A stretch of 64,000 bases of DNA from Chloroflexota bacterium (GTDB taxonomy: Bacteria > Chloroflexota > Limnocylindria > Limnocylindrales > CSP1-4): positions 10,010 through 74,009 of the forward strand of contig JAJZRG010000009.1 in assembly GCA_021802825.1 (NCBI GenBank), written 5' to 3'. The first letter of the stretch is position 1; every line of letters starts with the position of its first letter. The notes under the pieces were generated by a model. It searched no databases. It saw nothing but the letters and a program-made list of their open reading frames with translations, and was not told the DNA's origin. A program made the translations under genes and the position numbers. Of this stretch, positions 2,374-63,495 are shown piece after piece.

Positions 2374-2400
2374 CTCACCCCTGTTTCACCTTGCGCTCAG
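2374..2400 (+). promoter_or_regulatory. Phased YTCA-N7 array (x3) upstream of LysM-M23 peptidase
   Basis: CTCA 2374, TTCA 2385, CTCA 2396: exact 11-bp spacing, sense to the gene starting at 2486. Confidence 0.5.
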
Positions 2401-2485
2401 GAGTCGGCACGAGGATCGACACGCCCGAGCCGCAGCGTCCGTTGACTGTGTCCGGCGGTGGGCGTCGAACACAGCGAGGTCGTAG

Positions 2486-3493
2486 ATGCGACAGGCACAC
2501 CCCGTGCGCGCCCGCGCGCGCCGACGACAACTGGCCGCGGCCGCGCTCCTCGGGGCTGTCGGGGCGATCTGGTCGCTGAGCGCGGTGGCCGGACGGGCGC
2601 CGTCATCGAGTAGCGCGCTCCCCCCGGAGGCGTTCCGACAGGTCGTCGCGGCGCCACGGATGGACGTGGAGGCAACGCCGTCGGGCCAGGATGCGCCGAC
2701 GTCGGCGGCTCCCTCGTTGGCCCTTGGTGTTCTGGGCATCCCGACCGTCCCGACAGTCGACGCCGTCCCCGTCGTCCCCACGGTCGGCTCAGCAGGCGCG
2801 ACCTCCGACCCCACTGCCATTCCGTCCGCCGCGCCGGCGCTTGGGCAGCCGACGGCGACGCCAACGCCCGTGGCCCCAGCCGACGCGCCGCCCCCGGGAC
2901 CCACGCACGTCGTACGCCCGGGCGACAGCCTGTGGACAATCGCGGTCATGCACGGCGTGCCCCTCGCCACCGTGGTCCGGTGGAACCCCGCGGTGGATCC
3001 GGCCAGCGTGAGGATCGGATCGAAGGTCCTCGTGCCGGGCGGCCGCACCGCCAAGGCCGCAACCGCCAGGCCCAAGGCAGCCCCCAAGCCCGCGCCCAAG
3101 CGGGTCCCGAAGCCAGTCGTGGTTCCGAGGGCGTCGGGCCACCAGTGGCCGCTCGCTGTCCGGGGCGAGGTCACCACGACCTTCTCGAGCCGCCATCCCG
3201 GCATCGACATCGCCTCTCCGGCCGGCACCCCCATCCGCGCGGTCGCGGCCGGCGTCGTCATCTGGGCCGGCTGGAAGGACAACGGGGGCGGCTTCGTCGT
3301 CGTCCTGCGCCACCCGAACGGCATGATCTCGACCTACAACCACAGCCGCAGGGTGCTCGTGTCCGTCGGCCAGCGCGTCGGCGGCGGCCAGGAGATCGCC
3401 GAGGTCGGCACGACCGGCAATTCGACGGGGCCGCACCTGGACGTGCGGATCGAGATGGGCGGCCGGTTCGTCAACCCCCTCCTGCTCTTCTGA
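2486..3493 (+). CDS. Secreted LysM-domain M23 family metallopeptidase
   Basis: Signal/TM segment, LysM (HVVRPGDSLWTIAVMHGVPLATVVRWNP...IGSKVLVPG). M23 motifs HPGIDIASPAGTPIRAVAAGVV and GNSTGPHLDVRI. AGGT SD upstream of ATG 2486. Confidence 0.9.
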   Translation: MRQAHPVRARARRRQLAAAALLGAVGAIWSLSAVAGRAPSSSSALPPEAFRQVVAAPRMDVEATPSGQDAPTSAAPSLALGVLGIPTVPTVDAVPVVPTVGSAGATSDPTAIPSAAPALGQPTATPTPVAPADAPPPGPTHVVRPGDSLWTIAVMHGVPLATVVRWNPAVDPASVRIGSKVLVPGGRTAKAATARPKAAPKPAPKRVPKPVVVPRASGHQWPLAVRGEVTTTFSSRHPGIDIASPAGTPIRAVAAGVVIWAGWKDNGGGFVVVLRHPNGMISTYNHSRRVLVSVGQRVGGGQEIAEVGTTGNSTGPHLDVRIEMGGRFVNPLLLF

Positions 3494-3538
3494 TCGTTAG
3501 GCCCGGTAGCTCTGCGTCCAAACCGTGGAGGGATCCCG

Positions 3539-4015
3539 ATGTCACTGGCGTCGTGGCTGCTCTGGGGGCACCTGCTAGCGACGGTCGTGCTGGTCGGCTA
3601 CTACGTGCTGCTCGCGGCCGTCGTGATCCCGGCCGTCACGCGCGCGGCCGGCGATCGCCGGGCTGTCGTCCTCCCGGTCGGCCAGCTGCTGGCGGCCATC
3701 GAGCGACGCGCGCTGCCGCTCCTGCTCGCGTCGGTCGGCGTCTTCCTCGCCACCGGCATCGGCCTCCAGACATCGGACCCGCAGTACCAGGGGCTGGGCC
3801 AGGTGCGGGGCGCCTGGGCGGGTCTGCTCCTGGTCAAGCACCTCGTGGTGGTCGGGATGCTCGCCGTCGGCTCGGTGCTCGACGGCTTCCTGGTCCGGGC
3901 GGGGCGAGAGGATTCCCCGTCAGCGCCGGGCGCAAGCCTCGTCTGGACCGTCCGCGTTCAGGCTGGGCTCGGGGTGCTCGTGCTCCTCATCACGGCGGCG
4001 GCGCAGGGCGCGTGA
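3539..4015 (+). CDS. CopD-like integral membrane protein
   Basis: 158 aa, 4 TM helices, GGAGGG SD. Pattern resembles the C-terminal copper-resistance-D (CopD) domain. Assignment by topology and context only. Confidence 0.5.
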   Translation: MSLASWLLWGHLLATVVLVGYYVLLAAVVIPAVTRAAGDRRAVVLPVGQLLAAIERRALPLLLASVGVFLATGIGLQTSDPQYQGLGQVRGAWAGLLLVKHLVVVGMLAVGSVLDGFLVRAGREDSPSAPGASLVWTVRVQAGLGVLVLLITAAAQGA

Positions 4016-5345
4016 CGCCTGGATCCGCGCGGACGAGCGGCGCCTTGCCGGCGGCCGTGCGCGGGATCGCGGGGACCTCGCTCAATGTCACGGGGGGCGC
4101 AACTGCCCCGACTGCCTCGATGGCCGAACGGATCTCCGTCACCACGGCCGCGCCGTCGAAGCCCGCGCCCGGTCCCGCCACCAGCAGCCGCAGCACGTCA
4201 CCCTCCTGGACGACCTGCCACTCACCGGCGGGCACGCGGTCGAGGGCGTCGTGGAAGACGAGCGGGTGGACGGCGACCAGCCCCCCGTTGCGCCCGGGCA
4301 GCTGAAGGATGTCCTCCTGGCGGCCCTGGATCGCGTCGAGCAGCGCATAGGGGCGGCCGCACGGGCATCGGCGGGACGCCAGCCGGACGCTGTCGCTCAT
4401 CTCATAGCGGATCAGCGGTTGGGTTCGGCTGAACAGCACCGTGACCAGGATCTTGGCCCCGAAGGTGCCGACGGAGACCGGGCGGTTCGCCTCGTCGACG
4501 ACCTCGGTGATCACGAGGTCCTCGAACAGGTGGAGGCCGTCGTGCTGCTCGCATTCGGACGCGATGCCCGCGGGCTCGGTGGCCGCGTACACGTTGAACG
4601 GCTGCCGGCCCCAGGCCTGCGCGACGATGCGGCGCGTGTCATCCGTGAGCACCTCGGACGCGGACAGCGCCGCGGTCGGCGAGATGCGCAGCCGGCCCGC
4701 CAGCTGCTCCTCGGCGAGCAGGCGGTGCATTGAGGCGTAGCCGATCAGCGACTGGGGCTGGAAGGCGTTGAGCCGCGCCACAATGTCCGCGACCGGGTCG
4801 GTGGCGTTGACCCGGAGCGTGCGCACGAGCGGGTTCGCGACGCTCGCACCGACGCGCGCCGACTGGTGCCAGGCCGTCGTCGTGCTCACGACCGCGAGCC
4901 GCATCCGGTGCGTCGGCGAGGCCGCGACGCCGGCCCACTCCTGCGCGCGGTTGTACGAGCCGACCACCGCCGCCCACTCGGCGGCGTCAGAGAGGAAGAC
5001 GCCCCGCACCCCGGTCGTGCCCGACGTCGACACGACGCGGTAGCGGCCGCGGAACCGGGCATCGTCGGCCATGGAGCGCAGATGGGCCTCCACGTCGGCA
5101 AGCCGGACCCCGCGGTCGGTGACGACCTCGTCGAAGCTGGCCGCGAGCTCGGCCTTGGTCACCGTGGGCAGCGCCTCGAGCGGCGCCTCCTCGAGCCCGG
5201 CGTGGAGCCGGCGGTAGAACGGCGACCGCGCGACGGCGAACCGGCGGAGCTCGCGCAGGGCCCGCTCGCGGTGCGCGTCCAGCTCCGTCCGGTCCCACTG
5301 GTCCCGCCGCCGCAACCCGCCGCGCGTGGCGAGGACGCGACCCAT
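3990..5345 (-). CDS. Adenylate-forming enzyme, phenylacetate-CoA ligase / F390 synthetase-like
   Basis: ORF 3990..5417, ATG 5345 (MGRVLATRGG). Has the STSGTTG P-loop-like AMP-binding motif (VVSTSGTTGVRGVF). Overall layout matches the PaaK family. Confidence 0.65.
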   Translation of the reverse strand: MGRVLATRGGLRRRDQWDRTELDAHRERALRELRRFAVARSPFYRRLHAGLEEAPLEALPTVTKAELAASFDEVVTDRGVRLADVEAHLRSMADDARFRGRYRVVSTSGTTGVRGVFLSDAAEWAAVVGSYNRAQEWAGVAASPTHRMRLAVVSTTTAWHQSARVGASVANPLVRTLRVNATDPVADIVARLNAFQPQSLIGYASMHRLLAEEQLAGRLRISPTAALSASEVLTDDTRRIVAQAWGRQPFNVYAATEPAGIASECEQHDGLHLFEDLVITEVVDEANRPVSVGTFGAKILVTVLFSRTQPLIRYEMSDSVRLASRRCPCGRPYALLDAIQGRQEDILQLPGRNGGLVAVHPLVFHDALDRVPAGEWQVVQEGDVLRLLVAGPGAGFDGAAVVTEIRSAIEAVGAVAPPVTLSEVPAIPRTAAGKAPLVRADPGVTRPAPPP

Positions 5346-5373
5346 GAGCGCCAAGTCCACGACGACCTCCGGA

Positions 5374-62667: not shown

Positions 62668-62704
62668 TGAGCCGTGCGTGAGATCGGCATGAAGACGTGC
62701 TGTG
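62668..62704 (-). promoter_or_regulatory. Phased array (x4) upstream of the type-1 cupredoxin ... lgt operon
   Basis: Top-strand TGAG 62668, TGAG 62679, TGAA 62690, TGTG 62701. Confidence 0.5.
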
Positions 62705-62738
62705 AAACCGGCCCAGCCAGGACGGCTCTGTCTCGCTT

Positions 62739-62764
62739 CTCAGCGGCAATTCACCCTGCGTTCA
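62739..62764 (+). promoter_or_regulatory. Phased YTCA-N7 array (x3) upstream of DoxX copy 2
   Basis: CTCA 62739, TTCA 62750, TTCA 62761. Lies 76-101 nt upstream of ATG 62840, back-to-back with the opposite-sense array 62668..62704. Confidence 0.5.
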
Positions 62765-62839
62765 TCGGCCGGGCGCACACCTGTGCCAGCGCGGGCGGGG
62801 TACCCCGCGCAACACGTGCACGGAGGTGACATCGTGGAC

Positions 62840-63373
62840 ATGCTCGGCAGACGGCGAGCGCGGGCGCTCGCGATCCTCCGAATCGCGGTGGGGGCCGGAT
62901 TCCTCTACGCGGGACTCGAGAAGGTCCTCGACTTCGCTGGAACCGGCAAGCCTTGGTCTGCAGCCGGCTTCCTCAAGTTCGGTACGGCCGGCACCATCCC
63001 CAACATGAGCGGCCTCCCGGATCCGATGAGCCACAACCCGATGCAGGCTTTCTGGGGCGGCCTCGCGGCAGACCCGGGGATCATGGGCGTCATCAACGTC
63101 CTCGTTGTCTTCGGCGAGGTCGCCATCGGGGTCGCGCTCGTCCTCGGCCTCGCCACCCGCATCGCCGGCACGCTCGGCGCGGTCATGATGTTCCTCTTCT
63201 GGCTCGCGGCCTGGGACTTCCAGTTCGGCCCGGTGAATCAGCAGTTCGTGTACATGCTCCTGTCGGCGACGGTGGCCTACGCCTCTGCGGGCAAGACCCT
63301 CGGTCTCGACGAGCGACTCGAGCGCTCCGGGATCGCGCAGCGCTTCCCCCCGTTGCGGCTCACGCTGGGATAG
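62840..63373 (+). CDS. DoxX-family membrane protein (copy 2)
   Basis: ORF from 62702; ATG 62840 has a GGAGGTG SD. LAILRIAVGAGFLYAGLEKV, VFGEVAIGVALVLGLATRIAG. Confidence 0.7.
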   Translation: MLGRRRARALAILRIAVGAGFLYAGLEKVLDFAGTGKPWSAAGFLKFGTAGTIPNMSGLPDPMSHNPMQAFWGGLAADPGIMGVINVLVVFGEVAIGVALVLGLATRIAGTLGAVMMFLFWLAAWDFQFGPVNQQFVYMLLSATVAYASAGKTLGLDERLERSGIAQRFPPLRLTLG

Positions 63374-63469
63374 CCGCGCGAACCCCCCAACGCAACTTCG
63401 CGGCGGCGACTACGGCGATGGATGGCGGAGCATGACGGCACCACCCCGTGCGTCATGCTCCGACCACTT

Positions 63470-63495
63470 CTCACGCGGCGCTCACCCGGCTCTCA
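63470..63495 (+). promoter_or_regulatory. Phased YTCA-N7 array (x3) upstream of the terminal lipoprotein gene
   Basis: CTCA at 63470, 63481 and 63492. Confidence 0.5.

What the first reader, a model, noticed from the sequence alone, without database searches (positions are those of the whole stretch)
2374..63495. Window-wide regulon signature: 11-bp-phased YTCA direct-repeat arrays upstream of about 20 transcription units
Reading the intergenic regions, I found the tetranucleotide (C/T)TCA recurring 2-5 times at exactly 11-bp spacing. The arrays are always oriented in the sense of the gene immediately downstream.

Arrays with at least three in-phase copies lie upstream of these targets:
- LysM-M23 peptidase (2374)
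- the Ig-like/CsoR-like/cupredoxin operon (8887)
- an apparently empty stretch (9148)
- DoxX-1 (15223)
- the YHS/complex-I-like operon (24085)
- multicopper oxidase (32948)
- ICMT-like methyltransferase (34669)
- cytochrome b (36976, five copies)
- the htpX-psp operon (37912)
- oleate hydratase (48386)
- the YHS-EAL gene (58065)
- the type-1 cupredoxin-lgt operon (62668)
- DoxX-2 (62739)
- the terminal lipoprotein gene (63470)

Weaker arrays precede the TRASH-like gene (9875), the two-component operon itself (14295), the 58-aa ORF (37748), the LuxR-type gene (45473), the P-type ATPase (51239) and the geranylgeranyl reductase (43983). Both divergent regions (37698-37992 and 62645-62839) carry two arrays, one for each direction.

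In DNA of about 70% GC, a back-of-envelope estimate gives a per-position YTCA frequency near 0.004. A triple in-phase occurrence is therefore expected far less than once in 64 kb on both strands. That estimate is mine and is not a computed statistic.

Direct repeats with one-helical-turn periodicity are the classical binding architecture of OmpR/PhoB-family regulators. From memory, Mycobacterium PhoP uses TCACAGC-N4-TCACAGC, and Corynebacterium glutamicum CopR uses TGAAGATTT-N2-TGAAGATTT upstream of a multicopper oxidase and an ATPase. The array at 37009 even reads TGAAGATTA. The only OmpR-type regulator in the window (13466..14149) has an array upstream of its own operon.
Basis: partly seen in the sequence, partly recalled or inferred. 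Interest (0 to 1): 0.85.

Follow-up and report, generated by a model that had tools for sequence, protein, structure and literature searches.

The report
Copper-island promoters sharing phased CTCA repeats
About 22 promoters in this 64-kb copper and membrane-stress gene island of an uncultured Chloroflexota bacterium carry the same three CTCA repeats spaced one DNA turn apart, most likely the docking site of the two-component response regulator encoded in the island, so one sensor probably switches the whole island on.

Summary
YTCA pairs at 11-bp spacing number 36, against 0-8 at any other spacing; in-phase triples number 15, against 0.007 in local shuffles. They form 22 arrays, all intergenic, each pointing at a downstream gene.

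Each array is (T/G)CTCA(G/T/C)(C/G)-N4, usually three units. It sits immediately upstream of a -10-like ANNNT, with no -35 element. Four or five genes start leaderless 6-8 nt after that -10. This places the repeats at about -49, -38 and -27, the geometry of PhoB/PhoP-type activators.

The host is a Limnocylindria (Chloroflexota) bacterium, not an actinobacterium. Related MAGs carry the same arrays before orthologous genes, including the regulator's own gene. About 55 Streptomyces control loci carry none.

The island's regulator (13466-14149) is about 47% identical to M. tuberculosis PhoP, which binds TCACAGC-N4 repeats. Five of PhoP's six base-contacting residues are kept. The one change, Ser216 to Val, lies at the contact to the only base that differs (TCTCAGC).

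Verdict: a well-supported but untested regulon of a PhoP-like, probably copper-sensing, two-component system. It is a new member of a known kind and of moderate interest.

The parts
2373..2405 (+). Three-unit array TCTCACCCCTG TTTCACCTTGC GCTCAGGAGTC. Predicted -10 GAGGAT (T at 2416). Target: LysM-M23 peptidase (ATG 2486) followed by a CopD-like gene.
   Evidence: (PWM 28.2); Pfam
8870..8913 (-). Four-unit array. Predicted -10 TGAACT. Target: operon 8810 to 3990 (207-aa and 371-aa unknowns, CsoR-like gene, cupredoxin, further unknowns).
9142..9174 (-). Three-unit array (best PWM score, 31.7). Predicted -10 GACGCT. No ORF follows. The roughly 210-nt downstream stretch is conserved in L009 and contains strong hairpins. 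It is either a leader/small RNA or a second upstream promoter for the 8810 operon.
   Evidence: z = -2.9; no Rfam hit
9874..9906 (+). Two exact units plus a degenerate CCTAAG unit. Predicted -10 GACCCT. Target: TRASH-like gene (9939/9963-10235).
   Evidence: the orthologous TRASH gene in L009 also has an array
11989..12021 (-). Predicted -10 GACCAT. Target: leaderless ATG 11970 of an HMA copper-chaperone gene, then YHS (11484-11714) and an Lgt-like gene.
   Evidence: orthologous promoters in L001 and L009
14289..14321 (-). Autoregulatory array TCTCATTCCGC TCTCATGTCGT CCTAAGGTTCG. Predicted -10 CACAGT. Target: the response-regulator and histidine-kinase operon.
   Evidence: full three-unit arrays at the same place in L001, L003, L009, L083 and L084
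13466..14149 (-). OmpR/PhoB-family response regulator (227 aa). It is the proposed binder of the arrays. Its recognition helix reads [11 protein letters not shown].
   Evidence: Pfam; NCBIfam (below every equivalog cutoff); PDB (M. tuberculosis PhoP, PrrA)
12063..13469 (-). Cognate histidine kinase (HAMP, HisKA, HATPase). The extracytoplasmic sensor domain is about 130 aa and includes the His-rich stretch [10 protein letters not shown].
15217..15249 (-). Three-unit array. Predicted -10 GAGACT. Target: DoxX-like gene (ATG 15132).
24079..24111 (-). Three-unit array. Predicted -10 TAACGT. Target: YHS gene (ATG 24023) followed by a complex-I membrane-arm-like operon running down to 15589.
32942..32974 (-). 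Three-unit array. Predicted -10 CACCCT. Target: multicopper oxidase.
34663..34695 (-). Three-unit array. Predicted -10 GATCCT. Target: ICMT/PEMT-like methyltransferase (GTG 34639, nearly leaderless), possibly followed by OsmC.
36970..37013 (-). Four-unit array (CTTCA, degenerate TCCCA, TCTCA, ACTCA). Predicted -10 GAAACT. Target: cytochrome b.
   Evidence: the orthologous cytochrome b promoter in L001 has two arrays
37742..37785 (-). Two exact units plus two degenerate units (CCTCG, CCTAA). Predicted -10 CATGTT. Target: a 58-aa His-rich membrane peptide (37521-37697) with an AGGAGG ribosome-binding site.
   Evidence: (PWM 12.4)
37911..37943 (+). Three-unit array. Predicted -10 AAGGAT. Target: HtpX (M48 peptidase), PspAB, PspA, PspAA operon.
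43982..44003 (+). Two-unit array at the two promoter-proximal positions. Predicted -10 GAGGAT. Target: FAD-dependent oxidoreductase (GTG 44025, nearly leaderless).
45472..45504 (+). TCTCA, degenerate TCCCA, GTTCA. Predicted -10 GATGGT. Target: GerE/LuxR-type regulator.
48380..48412 (-). Three-unit array. Predicted -10 CAGACT. Target: MCRA-family oleate hydratase.
51238..51270 (+). Two exact units plus a degenerate GGCCA unit. Predicted -10 CATGAT. Target: copper P-type ATPase and cyclopropane-fatty-acid synthase operon.
58059..58091 (-). Three-unit array. Predicted -10 GATCGT. Target: YHS-EAL gene followed by an EamA transporter gene.
61647..61690 (-). TCTCA, degenerate unit, CCTCA, GTTCA. Predicted -10 GATCGT. 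Target: leaderless ATG 61628 (64 aa), then cupredoxin and Lgt.
   Evidence: orthologous promoters in L002, L003 and L009
62662..62694 (-). Three-unit array. Predicted -10 GAGACT. Target: leaderless ATG 62644 of a type-1 cupredoxin gene.
   Evidence: ortholog in L003
62738..62770 (+). Three-unit array, divergent from the previous one. Target: second DoxX gene.
   Evidence: ortholog in L009
63469..63501 (+). Three-unit array. Predicted -10 CACGCT. Target: leaderless ATG 63520 of a lipoprotein gene.
   Evidence: ortholog in L001

Best explanation
The arrays are operator sites of a PhoP-like OmpR/PhoB-family response regulator, most probably the one encoded at 13466-14149.

**Proposed sequence of events**
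1. The partner kinase (12063-13469) senses an extracytoplasmic signal, probably copper.
2. The kinase phosphorylates the regulator.
3. Regulator molecules line up head-to-tail, one per 11-bp unit, on two to four units of consensus TCTCAGC-N4. The units are centred near -49, -38 and -27.
4. These sites occupy the place of the missing -35 element. The bound regulator therefore recruits RNA polymerase to the weak -10 (ANNNT), in the way shown structurally for M. tuberculosis PhoP.

**Predicted outcome**
- About 22 transcription units of the island switch on together.
- Copper functions: copper export, copper oxidation, copper chaperones and cupredoxins.
- Envelope functions: Psp/HtpX, lipoprotein and fatty-acid modifying enzymes, a complex-I-like membrane module.
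- The two-component system itself, giving positive feedback.

**Shown versus inferred**
- Shown: the repeats, their statistics, orientation, fixed register to the -10 and to leaderless starts, conservation in relatives, and association with the regulator's helix type.
- Inferred: binding by this particular protein, activation rather than repression, and copper as the signal.
For: **Statistics**
- 36 pairs and 15 triples at 11 bp, against 2.55 and 0.007 in shuffles.
- 21 PWM arrays against 0.43 expected, all intergenic.

**Promoter register**
- A at +16 and T at +20 after the proximal unit, each in 18 of 22 arrays. There is no TTGACA-like -35 and no extended -10.
- Leaderless ATGs lie 6-8 nt after that T at 11970, 61628, 62644 and 63520, and in relatives.
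- 13 of 13 orientation-informative arrays are in the sense orientation.

**Conservation**
- In Limnocylindria MAGs whose regulator is 87-92% identical, the arrays recur before orthologues of the regulator, HMA, TRASH, cytochrome b, cupredoxin, CsoR, DoxX and lipoprotein genes, although gene order differs.
- About 55 Streptomyces loci have no triples.

**Which regulator**
- A strong array lies upstream of the regulator gene in 10 of 26 loci with helix N[VAI]xE[VT][YH], against 0 of 125 others.
- The closest solved homologue is M. tuberculosis PhoP. It binds TCACAGC with a strict 4-bp spacer, and a triple repeat binds three protomers (PMC4832192).
- The window's regulator keeps N212, V213, E215, Y217 and Y220. 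It changes S216, the contact to the third base, to Val. The motif differs only at that third base.
- L018, whose regulator has Thr at that position, carries TCACAG-type repeats.
- Cryo-EM shows tandem PhoP on -35-overlapping boxes displacing sigma region 4 (PMC11825685).

**Copper**
- The targets are copper proteins.
- The kinase and regulator are closest to the heavy-metal subfamilies, though below cutoff.
- The sensor domain has a His-rich stretch.
Against: - There are no binding, expression or transcription-start data, and the organism is uncultured.
- Only a 64-71 kb stretch of the genome was available, so a paralogous regulator with the same helix encoded elsewhere cannot be excluded.
- The regulator and kinase score below the curated cutoffs of the heavy-metal families.
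- The sensor His residues are only partly conserved among relatives.
- More distant regulators with the same helix sit next to a GT20 (trehalose-phosphate synthase family) gene rather than copper genes. The motif therefore does not by itself imply copper.
- Sixteen of 26 same-helix loci lack a strong array near the regulator gene.
- The helix-class statistic is not corrected for shared ancestry.
Confidence: 0.75

Rival explanations
1. The arrays are real operators, but they are bound by a different PhoP-like response regulator, a paralogue encoded outside the window. The local two-component system would then be merely one of its targets.
For: - Only about 71 kb of the genome is visible.
- OmpR-family paralogues are numerous.
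- A second OmpR-type two-component system lies just beyond the window at about 69.9-70.7 kb.
Against: - The second regulator is only 40% identical and has a different recognition helix (HLDVHN at the six contact positions). It has no array upstream.
- Every close orthologue of the local regulator keeps an array in front of its own gene, the usual mark of an autoregulated system.
- Helix type and array presence go together across 151 loci.
Confidence: 0.12
2. The regulator binds the arrays as a repressor. It occludes the promoter (the sites span -50 to -18), and the genes are expressed when it is not phosphorylated.
For: - The sites overlap the core promoter.
- M. tuberculosis PhoP can also repress (PMC11825685).
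Against: - The promoters have no -35 hexamer and no extended -10. Without an activator they should be very weak.
- The fixed register of repeats to the -10, identical at all promoters, is what activators that contact sigma region 4 require. Repressor sites tolerate variable positions.
- Stress-island genes and an autoregulated two-component system fit induction.
Confidence: 0.08
3. The phased CTCA repeats are a general promoter feature of this lineage, an upstream element recognised by RNA polymerase itself or by an alternative sigma factor. On this view they are not the operator of a specific regulator.
For: The repeats replace the -35 at every promoter that has them. No housekeeping region of the same genome could be inspected.
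Against: - About eight transcription units inside the same island lack them: ccm cytochrome c maturation, BlaI/BlaR, APC permease, MFS, an Lgt-like gene and others.
- The mer-like genes and the second two-component system beyond 64 kb also lack them.
- Three identical units per turn is not a known sigma -35 architecture.
- Array presence tracks the regulator's helix type in other phyla.
Confidence: 0.03
4. Chance or compositional artefact, or copies of a dispersed repeat element.
For: None beyond the shortness of the 4-nt core.
Against: - Shuffles give 0.007 triples against 15 observed. No other spacing is enriched.
- The spacers between units are unrelated in sequence, so the arrays are not copies of one element.
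Confidence: 0.01

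Closest known systems
Mycobacterium tuberculosis PhoP and its direct-repeat sites (TCACAGC-N4-TCACAGC; PDB 5ED4; PhoP transcription activation complexes 9JI3-9JI5)
   Same: - It is the closest solved homologue of the window's regulator: E = 3e-61, about 47% identity.
- It has the same 7+4 = 11-bp head-to-tail architecture.
- The unit consensus matches at 6 of 7 bases.
- Five of the six base-contacting helix residues are identical.
- Triple repeats bind three protomers.
- The boxes overlap the -35 and substitute for it.
   Different: - The third base is T, not A, and Ser216 is Val.
- The target genes concern copper and the envelope, not virulence, phosphate or nitrogen.
- The partner kinase has a different sensor.
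- The host is a Chloroflexota bacterium.
- Three units are the norm, rather than pairs of units.
PHO boxes of E. coli PhoB (CTGTCAT) and Streptomyces coelicolor PhoP (GTTCACC): 11-nt direct repeat units
   Same: - The 11-nt units have a conserved 5' part and a loose 3' part, share a TCA core, and vary in number per operator (PMC4415409).
- From memory, the E. coli pho box ends about 10 bp upstream of the -10. That would put its TCA at the same position as the proximal unit here.
   Different: - No phosphate-regulon genes (pst, pho) are among the targets.
- The regulator scores below the PhoB equivalog cutoff: 220 against 296 bits.
Corynebacterium glutamicum CopRS (TGAAGATTT-N2-TGAAGATTT)
   Same: - It is a copper-responsive OmpR-type system of a Gram-positive bacterium that activates a multicopper oxidase, a copper ATPase and its own operon.
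- It has an 11-bp direct repeat whose reverse complement contains CTTCA (PMC3140484).
   Different: - CopR has a single site in the whole genome, with two units and a 9-bp conserved unit.
- Here there are 22 sites in 64 kb, usually three units, with a 4-7 bp conserved core.
- Only one unit in the window (37001-37009) resembles TGAAGATTT.
- Sequence relatedness of the two regulators was not tested.
Proteobacterial CusRS/CopRS/SilRS heavy-metal two-component systems (TIGR01387/TIGR01386)
   Same: These are the best-scoring curated subfamilies for both the kinase and the regulator. They have copper targets.
   Different: Both proteins are below the curated cutoffs: 235 against 279 bits and 198 against 293 bits. 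From memory, the proteobacterial 'copper box' has a different sequence.

Membership tests
Operator of an OmpR/PhoB-family (winged-helix) response regulator | Direct (head-to-tail) repeats with one-helical-turn (10-11 bp) periodicity | tested here: met
   Enrichment occurs at exactly 11 bp: 36 pairs and 15 triples. There is none at 10 or 12 bp.
Operator of an OmpR/PhoB-family (winged-helix) response regulator | A cognate regulator with Response_reg plus Trans_reg_C domains encoded nearby and itself preceded by a site | tested here: met
   Pfam. The array lies at 14289-14321 and is conserved in five close orthologous loci.
Operator of an OmpR/PhoB-family (winged-helix) response regulator | For activated promoters: sites in fixed register overlapping or replacing the -35, upstream of a -10 | tested here: met
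   ANNNT lies at a fixed offset in 18 of 22 arrays. There is no -35. Leaderless starts confirm the register. Transcription starts are predicted, not measured.
Operator of an OmpR/PhoB-family (winged-helix) response regulator | Demonstrated phosphorylation-dependent binding of the regulator | not testable with these tools
   Needs EMSA, DAP-seq or ChIP.
M. tuberculosis PhoP-type site | 7-bp motif with a strict 4-bp spacer | tested here: met
   Unit PWM; PMC4832192.
M. tuberculosis PhoP-type site | Motif sequence TCACAGC | tested here: not met
   The consensus is TCTCAGC. The third base is T in 45 of 45 units of the exact triples.
M. tuberculosis PhoP-type site | Regulator orthologous to PhoP (PhoPR) | tested here: inconclusive
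   About 47% identity to PhoP and about 48% to PrrA. No phylogeny was made. The kinase sensor is unrelated in function.
C. glutamicum CopR box | TGAAGATTT-N2-TGAAGATTT | tested here: not met
   Only one 8/9 unit, at 37001-37009. The other units lack AAAT upstream of CTTCA.
C. glutamicum CopR box | Targets include a multicopper oxidase, a copper ATPase and the system's own operon | tested here: met
   Arrays at 32942, 51238 and 14289.
Heavy-metal two-component system (TIGR01387 / TIGR01386) | Score above the curated NCBIfam cutoff | tested here: not met
   235.2 against 279.2 bits for the regulator; 198 against 292.55 bits for the kinase.
Pho regulon (PhoB/PhoP phosphate control) | Targets are phosphate-scavenging genes (pst, pho, ugp) | tested here: not met
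   No such genes occur among about 65 annotated genes.

The most novel reading that the evidence does not exclude
A PhoP-like regulator whose DNA specificity was shifted by one recognition-helix substitution (Ser to Val, TCACAGC to TCTCAGC) has become the master switch of a roughly 65-kb island in an uncultured Chloroflexota lineage. It would act as a tandem trimer at more than 20 promoters that lack a -35 element, many of them leaderless. The programme would couple copper detoxification to functions not previously linked to copper sensing: a complex-I-like membrane arm with a YHS protein, three Lgt paralogues plus Lit, oleate hydratase, cyclopropane-fatty-acid synthase, the Psp system, a c-di-GMP phosphodiesterase, and a conserved structured RNA.
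Probability: 0.3. Interest if true: 0.65.

Novelty: new member of a known kind. Interest (0 to 1): 0.5.

Why it matters
**For this lineage**
- It gives a precise, testable regulatory code for a lineage with no cultured or genetically tractable member (Limnocylindria, abundant in soils and lakes). The code comprises the motif, its register, predicted transcription starts, and a target list of about 22 units.
- It shows that one two-component system probably commands an unusually large and compact stress island.

**For regulator specificity**
- It offers a clean natural experiment on how OmpR/PhoB regulators change specificity. One helix residue and one base differ from the structurally solved M. 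tuberculosis PhoP complex.

**For annotation**
- It corrects several automatic start-codon calls by revealing leaderless genes, for example the HMA chaperone.

**For gene function**
- The target list nominates uncharacterised genes as parts of a copper/envelope response. These are DoxX-like, 207-, 371- and 437-aa unknowns, a 58-aa His-rich peptide, and a Nuo-like membrane module.

Tried and rejected
**M. tuberculosis MprA box**
- I recalled TCTCAGGG-type 8-bp repeats with a 3-bp spacer. I could not verify it, because the primary paper (PMC538824) is not held.
- The C. glutamicum MprA motif TKTTAAGAAM is unrelated.
- The lead is left as unverified memory.

**C. glutamicum CopR as the model**
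- Demoted. Only one unit resembles TGAAGATTT, and CopR has a single genomic site.

**Actinobacterial origin**
- Rejected. The nearest relatives are Limnocylindria (Chloroflexota) MAGs.

**Plasmid origin**
- No plasmid in PLSDB resembles 8-16 kb of the window.
- There are no tRNA genes.

**Known RNA families**
- None in the window.

**Second OmpR-type regulator just outside the window**
- Rejected as the binder on helix sequence and lack of an array.

**Lower-threshold two-unit scan**
- Aimed at the array-less transcription units (ccm, blaI/R, permeases). It found nothing new.

**Exact-protein look-ups**
- Two failed. Two succeeded and extended the sequence to about 70.9 kb.

**Wasted search**
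- A literature search on 'TCTCAG' returned only primer hits.

Full report

I counted co-oriented YTCA pairs at every spacing from 4 to 24 bp.
- Spacing 11 gives 36 pairs.
- Spacing 22 gives 20 pairs.
- Every other spacing gives 0-8 pairs.
- In-phase triples (11+11) number 15. Every other spacing gives none.

Thirty-three of the 36 pairs and 14 of the 15 triples fall in the 14% of the window that a crude codon-usage gene call leaves non-coding. The one 'coding' triple is really a promoter in front of a leaderless gene (see section 2).

Controls agree.
- Dinucleotide-preserving shuffles within 200-bp blocks keep local composition. They give 2.55 +/- 1.63 pairs (maximum 9) and 0.007 triples.
- A position weight matrix of one 11-nt unit, applied three times in register, finds 21 distinct arrays above a threshold. 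Locally shuffled windows reach that threshold 0.43 times on average.
- A two-unit array at 43983 makes 22 arrays in total.

Two more were missed, at 11989-12021 and 61647-61690. The cytochrome b array has three exact units and one degenerate unit, not five.

**2. Anatomy**

I aligned the 22 arrays on the promoter-proximal unit.
- CTCA is nearly invariant at three positions 11 bp apart.
- A T or G is favoured before it.
- The base after it is never A.
- C or G is favoured next.
- The unit consensus is therefore TCTCAGC-N4.

One block further downstream there is an A at +16 and a T at +20, each in 18 of 22 arrays. The background frequency for each is about 15%. This is the A-11/T-7 core of a -10 hexamer. 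Observed hexamers include GAGGAT, GACCAT, TAACGT, CATGAT and GATCGT.

There is no TTGACA-like hexamer and no TG extended -10. The -35 position is occupied by the middle repeat.

Four genes have an ATG 6-8 nt after the -10 T:
- the HMA chaperone at 11970;
- a 64-aa protein at 61628;
- a cupredoxin at 62644;
- a lipoprotein at 63520.

Two more have a GTG a few nucleotides further on. The same pattern recurs in relatives. Leaderless starts mark the transcription start. They fix the repeats at about -49, -38 and -27, so the three 11-nt units span -50 to -18.

Orientation is consistent.
- All 13 arrays lying between co-directional genes point in the sense direction.
- The divergent regions 37.7-37.9 kb and 62.66-62.77 kb have one array for each direction.

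Two 'orphan' arrays were resolved.
- The array at 37742-37785 precedes a 58-aa His-rich membrane peptide with an AGGAGG ribosome-binding site.
- The array at 9142-9174 has no ORF behind it. About 210 nt of hairpin-rich sequence follows. This stretch is 75% conserved in a related genome, where it is likewise flanked by two arrays.

**3. What the arrays control**

Pfam and NCBIfam annotation shows a copper and envelope island.

Targets concerned with copper:
- a copper P-type ATPase, co-transcribed with a cyclopropane-fatty-acid synthase;
- a multicopper oxidase;
- three cupredoxin genes;
- HMA, YHS and TRASH proteins;
- a CsoR-like repressor;
- CopD.

Targets concerned with the envelope, and others:
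- LysM-M23 peptidase;
- two DoxX proteins;
- cytochrome b;
- an ICMT-like methyltransferase;
- HtpX-PspAB-PspA-PspAA;
- an oleate hydratase;
- an FAD oxidoreductase;
- a LuxR-type regulator;
- a YHS-EAL protein;
- Lgt and Lit lipoprotein enzymes;
- a YHS gene leading a complex-I membrane-arm-like operon;
- the two-component system itself.

About eight transcription units inside the island have no array:
- BlaI/BlaR;
- the ccm cytochrome c maturation genes;
- an APC permease with a thioesterase;
- an unknown gene with an MFS transporter;
- an Lgt-like gene;
- a 118-aa unknown;
- the leftmost HMA/cupredoxin operon.

A nearly identical contig of the same population extends the sequence to about 70.9 kb. 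It has 1 mismatch in 13.9 kb of overlap. Beyond 64 kb there is only one weak array, before a ZIP transporter gene. There is none before the mer-like genes or before a second two-component system.

**4. Whose genome, and is the signature conserved?**

The regulator's closest relatives are 86-92% identical. They are in MAGs labelled Candidatus Limnocylindrales or Chloroflexi. The host is therefore a Chloroflexota bacterium, not an actinobacterium.

Those loci are full of the same arrays; L009 has 10 triples in 20 kb. About 55 Streptomyces loci, whose regulators are 44-50% identical, have no 11-bp triples in about 1.1 Mb.

In the close relatives the arrays precede orthologues of the regulator gene, HMA, TRASH, YHS/Lgt, cytochrome b, cupredoxins, CsoR, DoxX, the 371-aa unknown and the lipoprotein. 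Gene order differs and the spacer sequences have diverged. This is a phylogenetic footprint of a regulon.

**5. Which protein binds?**

Only a winged-helix OmpR/PhoB-type regulator fits 11-bp direct repeats. The other regulators in the window are the CsoR-like, BlaI, LuxR and ArsR types. From general knowledge, these use inverted repeats.

The local regulator has an array before its own operon. So do all five close orthologues with enough upstream sequence.

Across 151 loci, I compared array presence with the recognition helix.
- A strong array lies within 450 bp upstream of the regulator gene in 10 of 26 loci whose helix fits N[VAI]xE[VT][YH].
- It lies there in 0 of 125 others (Fisher p = 4e-9, not corrected for relatedness).

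The second regulator, just outside the window, is 40% identical and has a different helix.

The closest solved structures are M. tuberculosis PhoP and PrrA. The PhoP literature gives these points.
- PhoP binds TCACAGC direct repeats with a strict 4-bp spacer.
- It reads the bases with N212, V213, E215, S216, Y217 and Y220.
- S216 contacts the third base through a water molecule.
- A triple repeat binds three protomers more tightly than a double repeat (PMC4832192).

The window's regulator has N, V, E, V, Y, Y at these positions. Its motif, TCTCAGC, differs from TCACAGC only at the third base. In L018 the regulator has Thr at that position, and TCACAG-type repeats precede its gene. I infer that Val in place of Ser/Thr selects T over A. 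This is an inference, not a measurement.

**6. Mechanism**

Cryo-EM of PhoP transcription activation complexes shows tandem PhoP molecules on boxes that overlap the -35. They displace sigma region 4 and contact it and the beta flap (PMC11825685).

The arrays here have that layout: no -35, a fixed register to the -10, and two to four units. I therefore propose activation by recruitment once the kinase has phosphorylated the regulator.

Copper as the signal rests on three observations.
- The target list is dominated by copper proteins.
- The two proteins score best against the heavy-metal subfamilies, although below cutoff.
- The kinase's sensor domain has a His-rich stretch that is partly conserved.

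More distant regulators with the same helix carry the same arrays next to a GT20 gene. The DNA code is therefore older than the copper regulon.

**7. Rivals**

- A paralogous regulator elsewhere in the genome cannot be excluded with 71 kb of sequence.
- Repression is unlikely, because the promoters lack a -35 and the register is fixed.
- A general promoter architecture is unlikely, because neighbouring units lack the arrays.
- Chance and repeat-element origins are excluded by the statistics and by the unrelated spacers.

**8. Comparison with known systems**

The system works like PhoB/PhoP-type class II activation on 11-nt direct repeat units (PMC4415409). It is closest to M. tuberculosis PhoP. 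It is not a member of several related families.
- It is not a Pho regulon: there are no phosphate genes.
- It is not the TCACAGC family in the strict sense: the third base differs.
- It is not the C. glutamicum CopR box family: TGAAGATTT is matched only once, and CopR has a single genomic site.
- It is not the curated proteobacterial heavy-metal families: both proteins score below cutoff.

**9. Verdict**

It is a new member of a well-known kind of regulatory system. Several things make it notable:
- the number and density of promoters;
- the regular three-unit arrays;
- the leaderless targets;
- the breadth of envelope functions tied to a probable copper sensor;
- the one-residue, one-base relation to a solved complex.

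Nothing has been shown experimentally. Interest is 0.5.

Noticed in passing
window 8913-9126 (- strand); L009 14834-15050: The roughly 210-nt stretch transcribed from the 'orphan' array at 9142-9174 has no ORF. It is 75% conserved in a related genome and contains strong conserved hairpins, for example GCGGGCGGGATCC...GGATCCCGCCCGC. Folding z-score is -2.9 and there is no Rfam match. It could be a small RNA or a regulatory leader of the 8810 operon.
   Followed up: partly
window 15589-24023 (- strand): An operon led by a 52-aa YHS protein encodes only membrane-arm-like complex I subunits (NuoA, H, J, K and three L/M/N-type antiporter-like proteins) plus a 437-aa unknown. There are no peripheral-arm subunits. 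It lies under an array, so it may be a copper-linked ion-translocating module.
   Followed up: no
window 11737-12024: The public gene call for the HMA chaperone (95 aa, starting at ATG 12024) would place the promoter array inside the gene. The array, the -10 and orthologous promoters indicate a leaderless 77-aa protein starting at ATG 11970. Similarly, ATG 51277 of the ATPase lies inside its -10.
   Followed up: yes
window 24188-31613: A BlaI/BlaR-type (CopY family) repressor and sensor pair sits divergently next to a complete ccmABC-E-F-G-H cytochrome c maturation cluster. Neither has an array, which suggests a second, independent regulatory circuit inside the island.
   Followed up: no
window 9196-11450, 58528-59703, 60100-60915: The island holds three Lgt-family genes (two with long N-terminal extensions) and a Lit lipoprotein transacylase. 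This is an unusual concentration of lipoprotein-modifying enzymes, most of them under arrays.
   Followed up: no
beyond the window, about 64.0-70.9 kb (L082 1-7000): The same contig continues with two 163-aa lipoproteins, an ArsR-type regulator, an HMA protein with a MerA-like reductase, a ZIP transporter (weak two-unit array at about 67998-68030), a thioredoxin-like protein, and a second OmpR-type two-component system with a different recognition helix.
   Followed up: partly
L004 9625-9657, L006 9823-9855, L008 1724-1756: In Chloroflexia and Ktedonobacterales MAGs, regulators 66-68% identical and with the same recognition helix have a TCTCA/TTTCA three-unit array. There it drives a divergent glycosyltransferase family 20 (trehalose-phosphate synthase family) gene. 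The motif is the same but the regulon is different.
   Followed up: partly
window 37521-37697 (- strand): A 58-aa peptide (MAHDHDRTPG...WWMVACCAPMVVLVLLLLFGFLGTR) has a His-rich N-terminus, a CC motif and one transmembrane helix. It has no Pfam match and lies under an array.
   Followed up: partly
window 12063-13469, kinase residues about 115-125: The sensor domain contains [10 protein letters not shown]. One His of this stretch and the His of NAEH are conserved in close orthologues, making them candidate metal ligands.
   Followed up: partly
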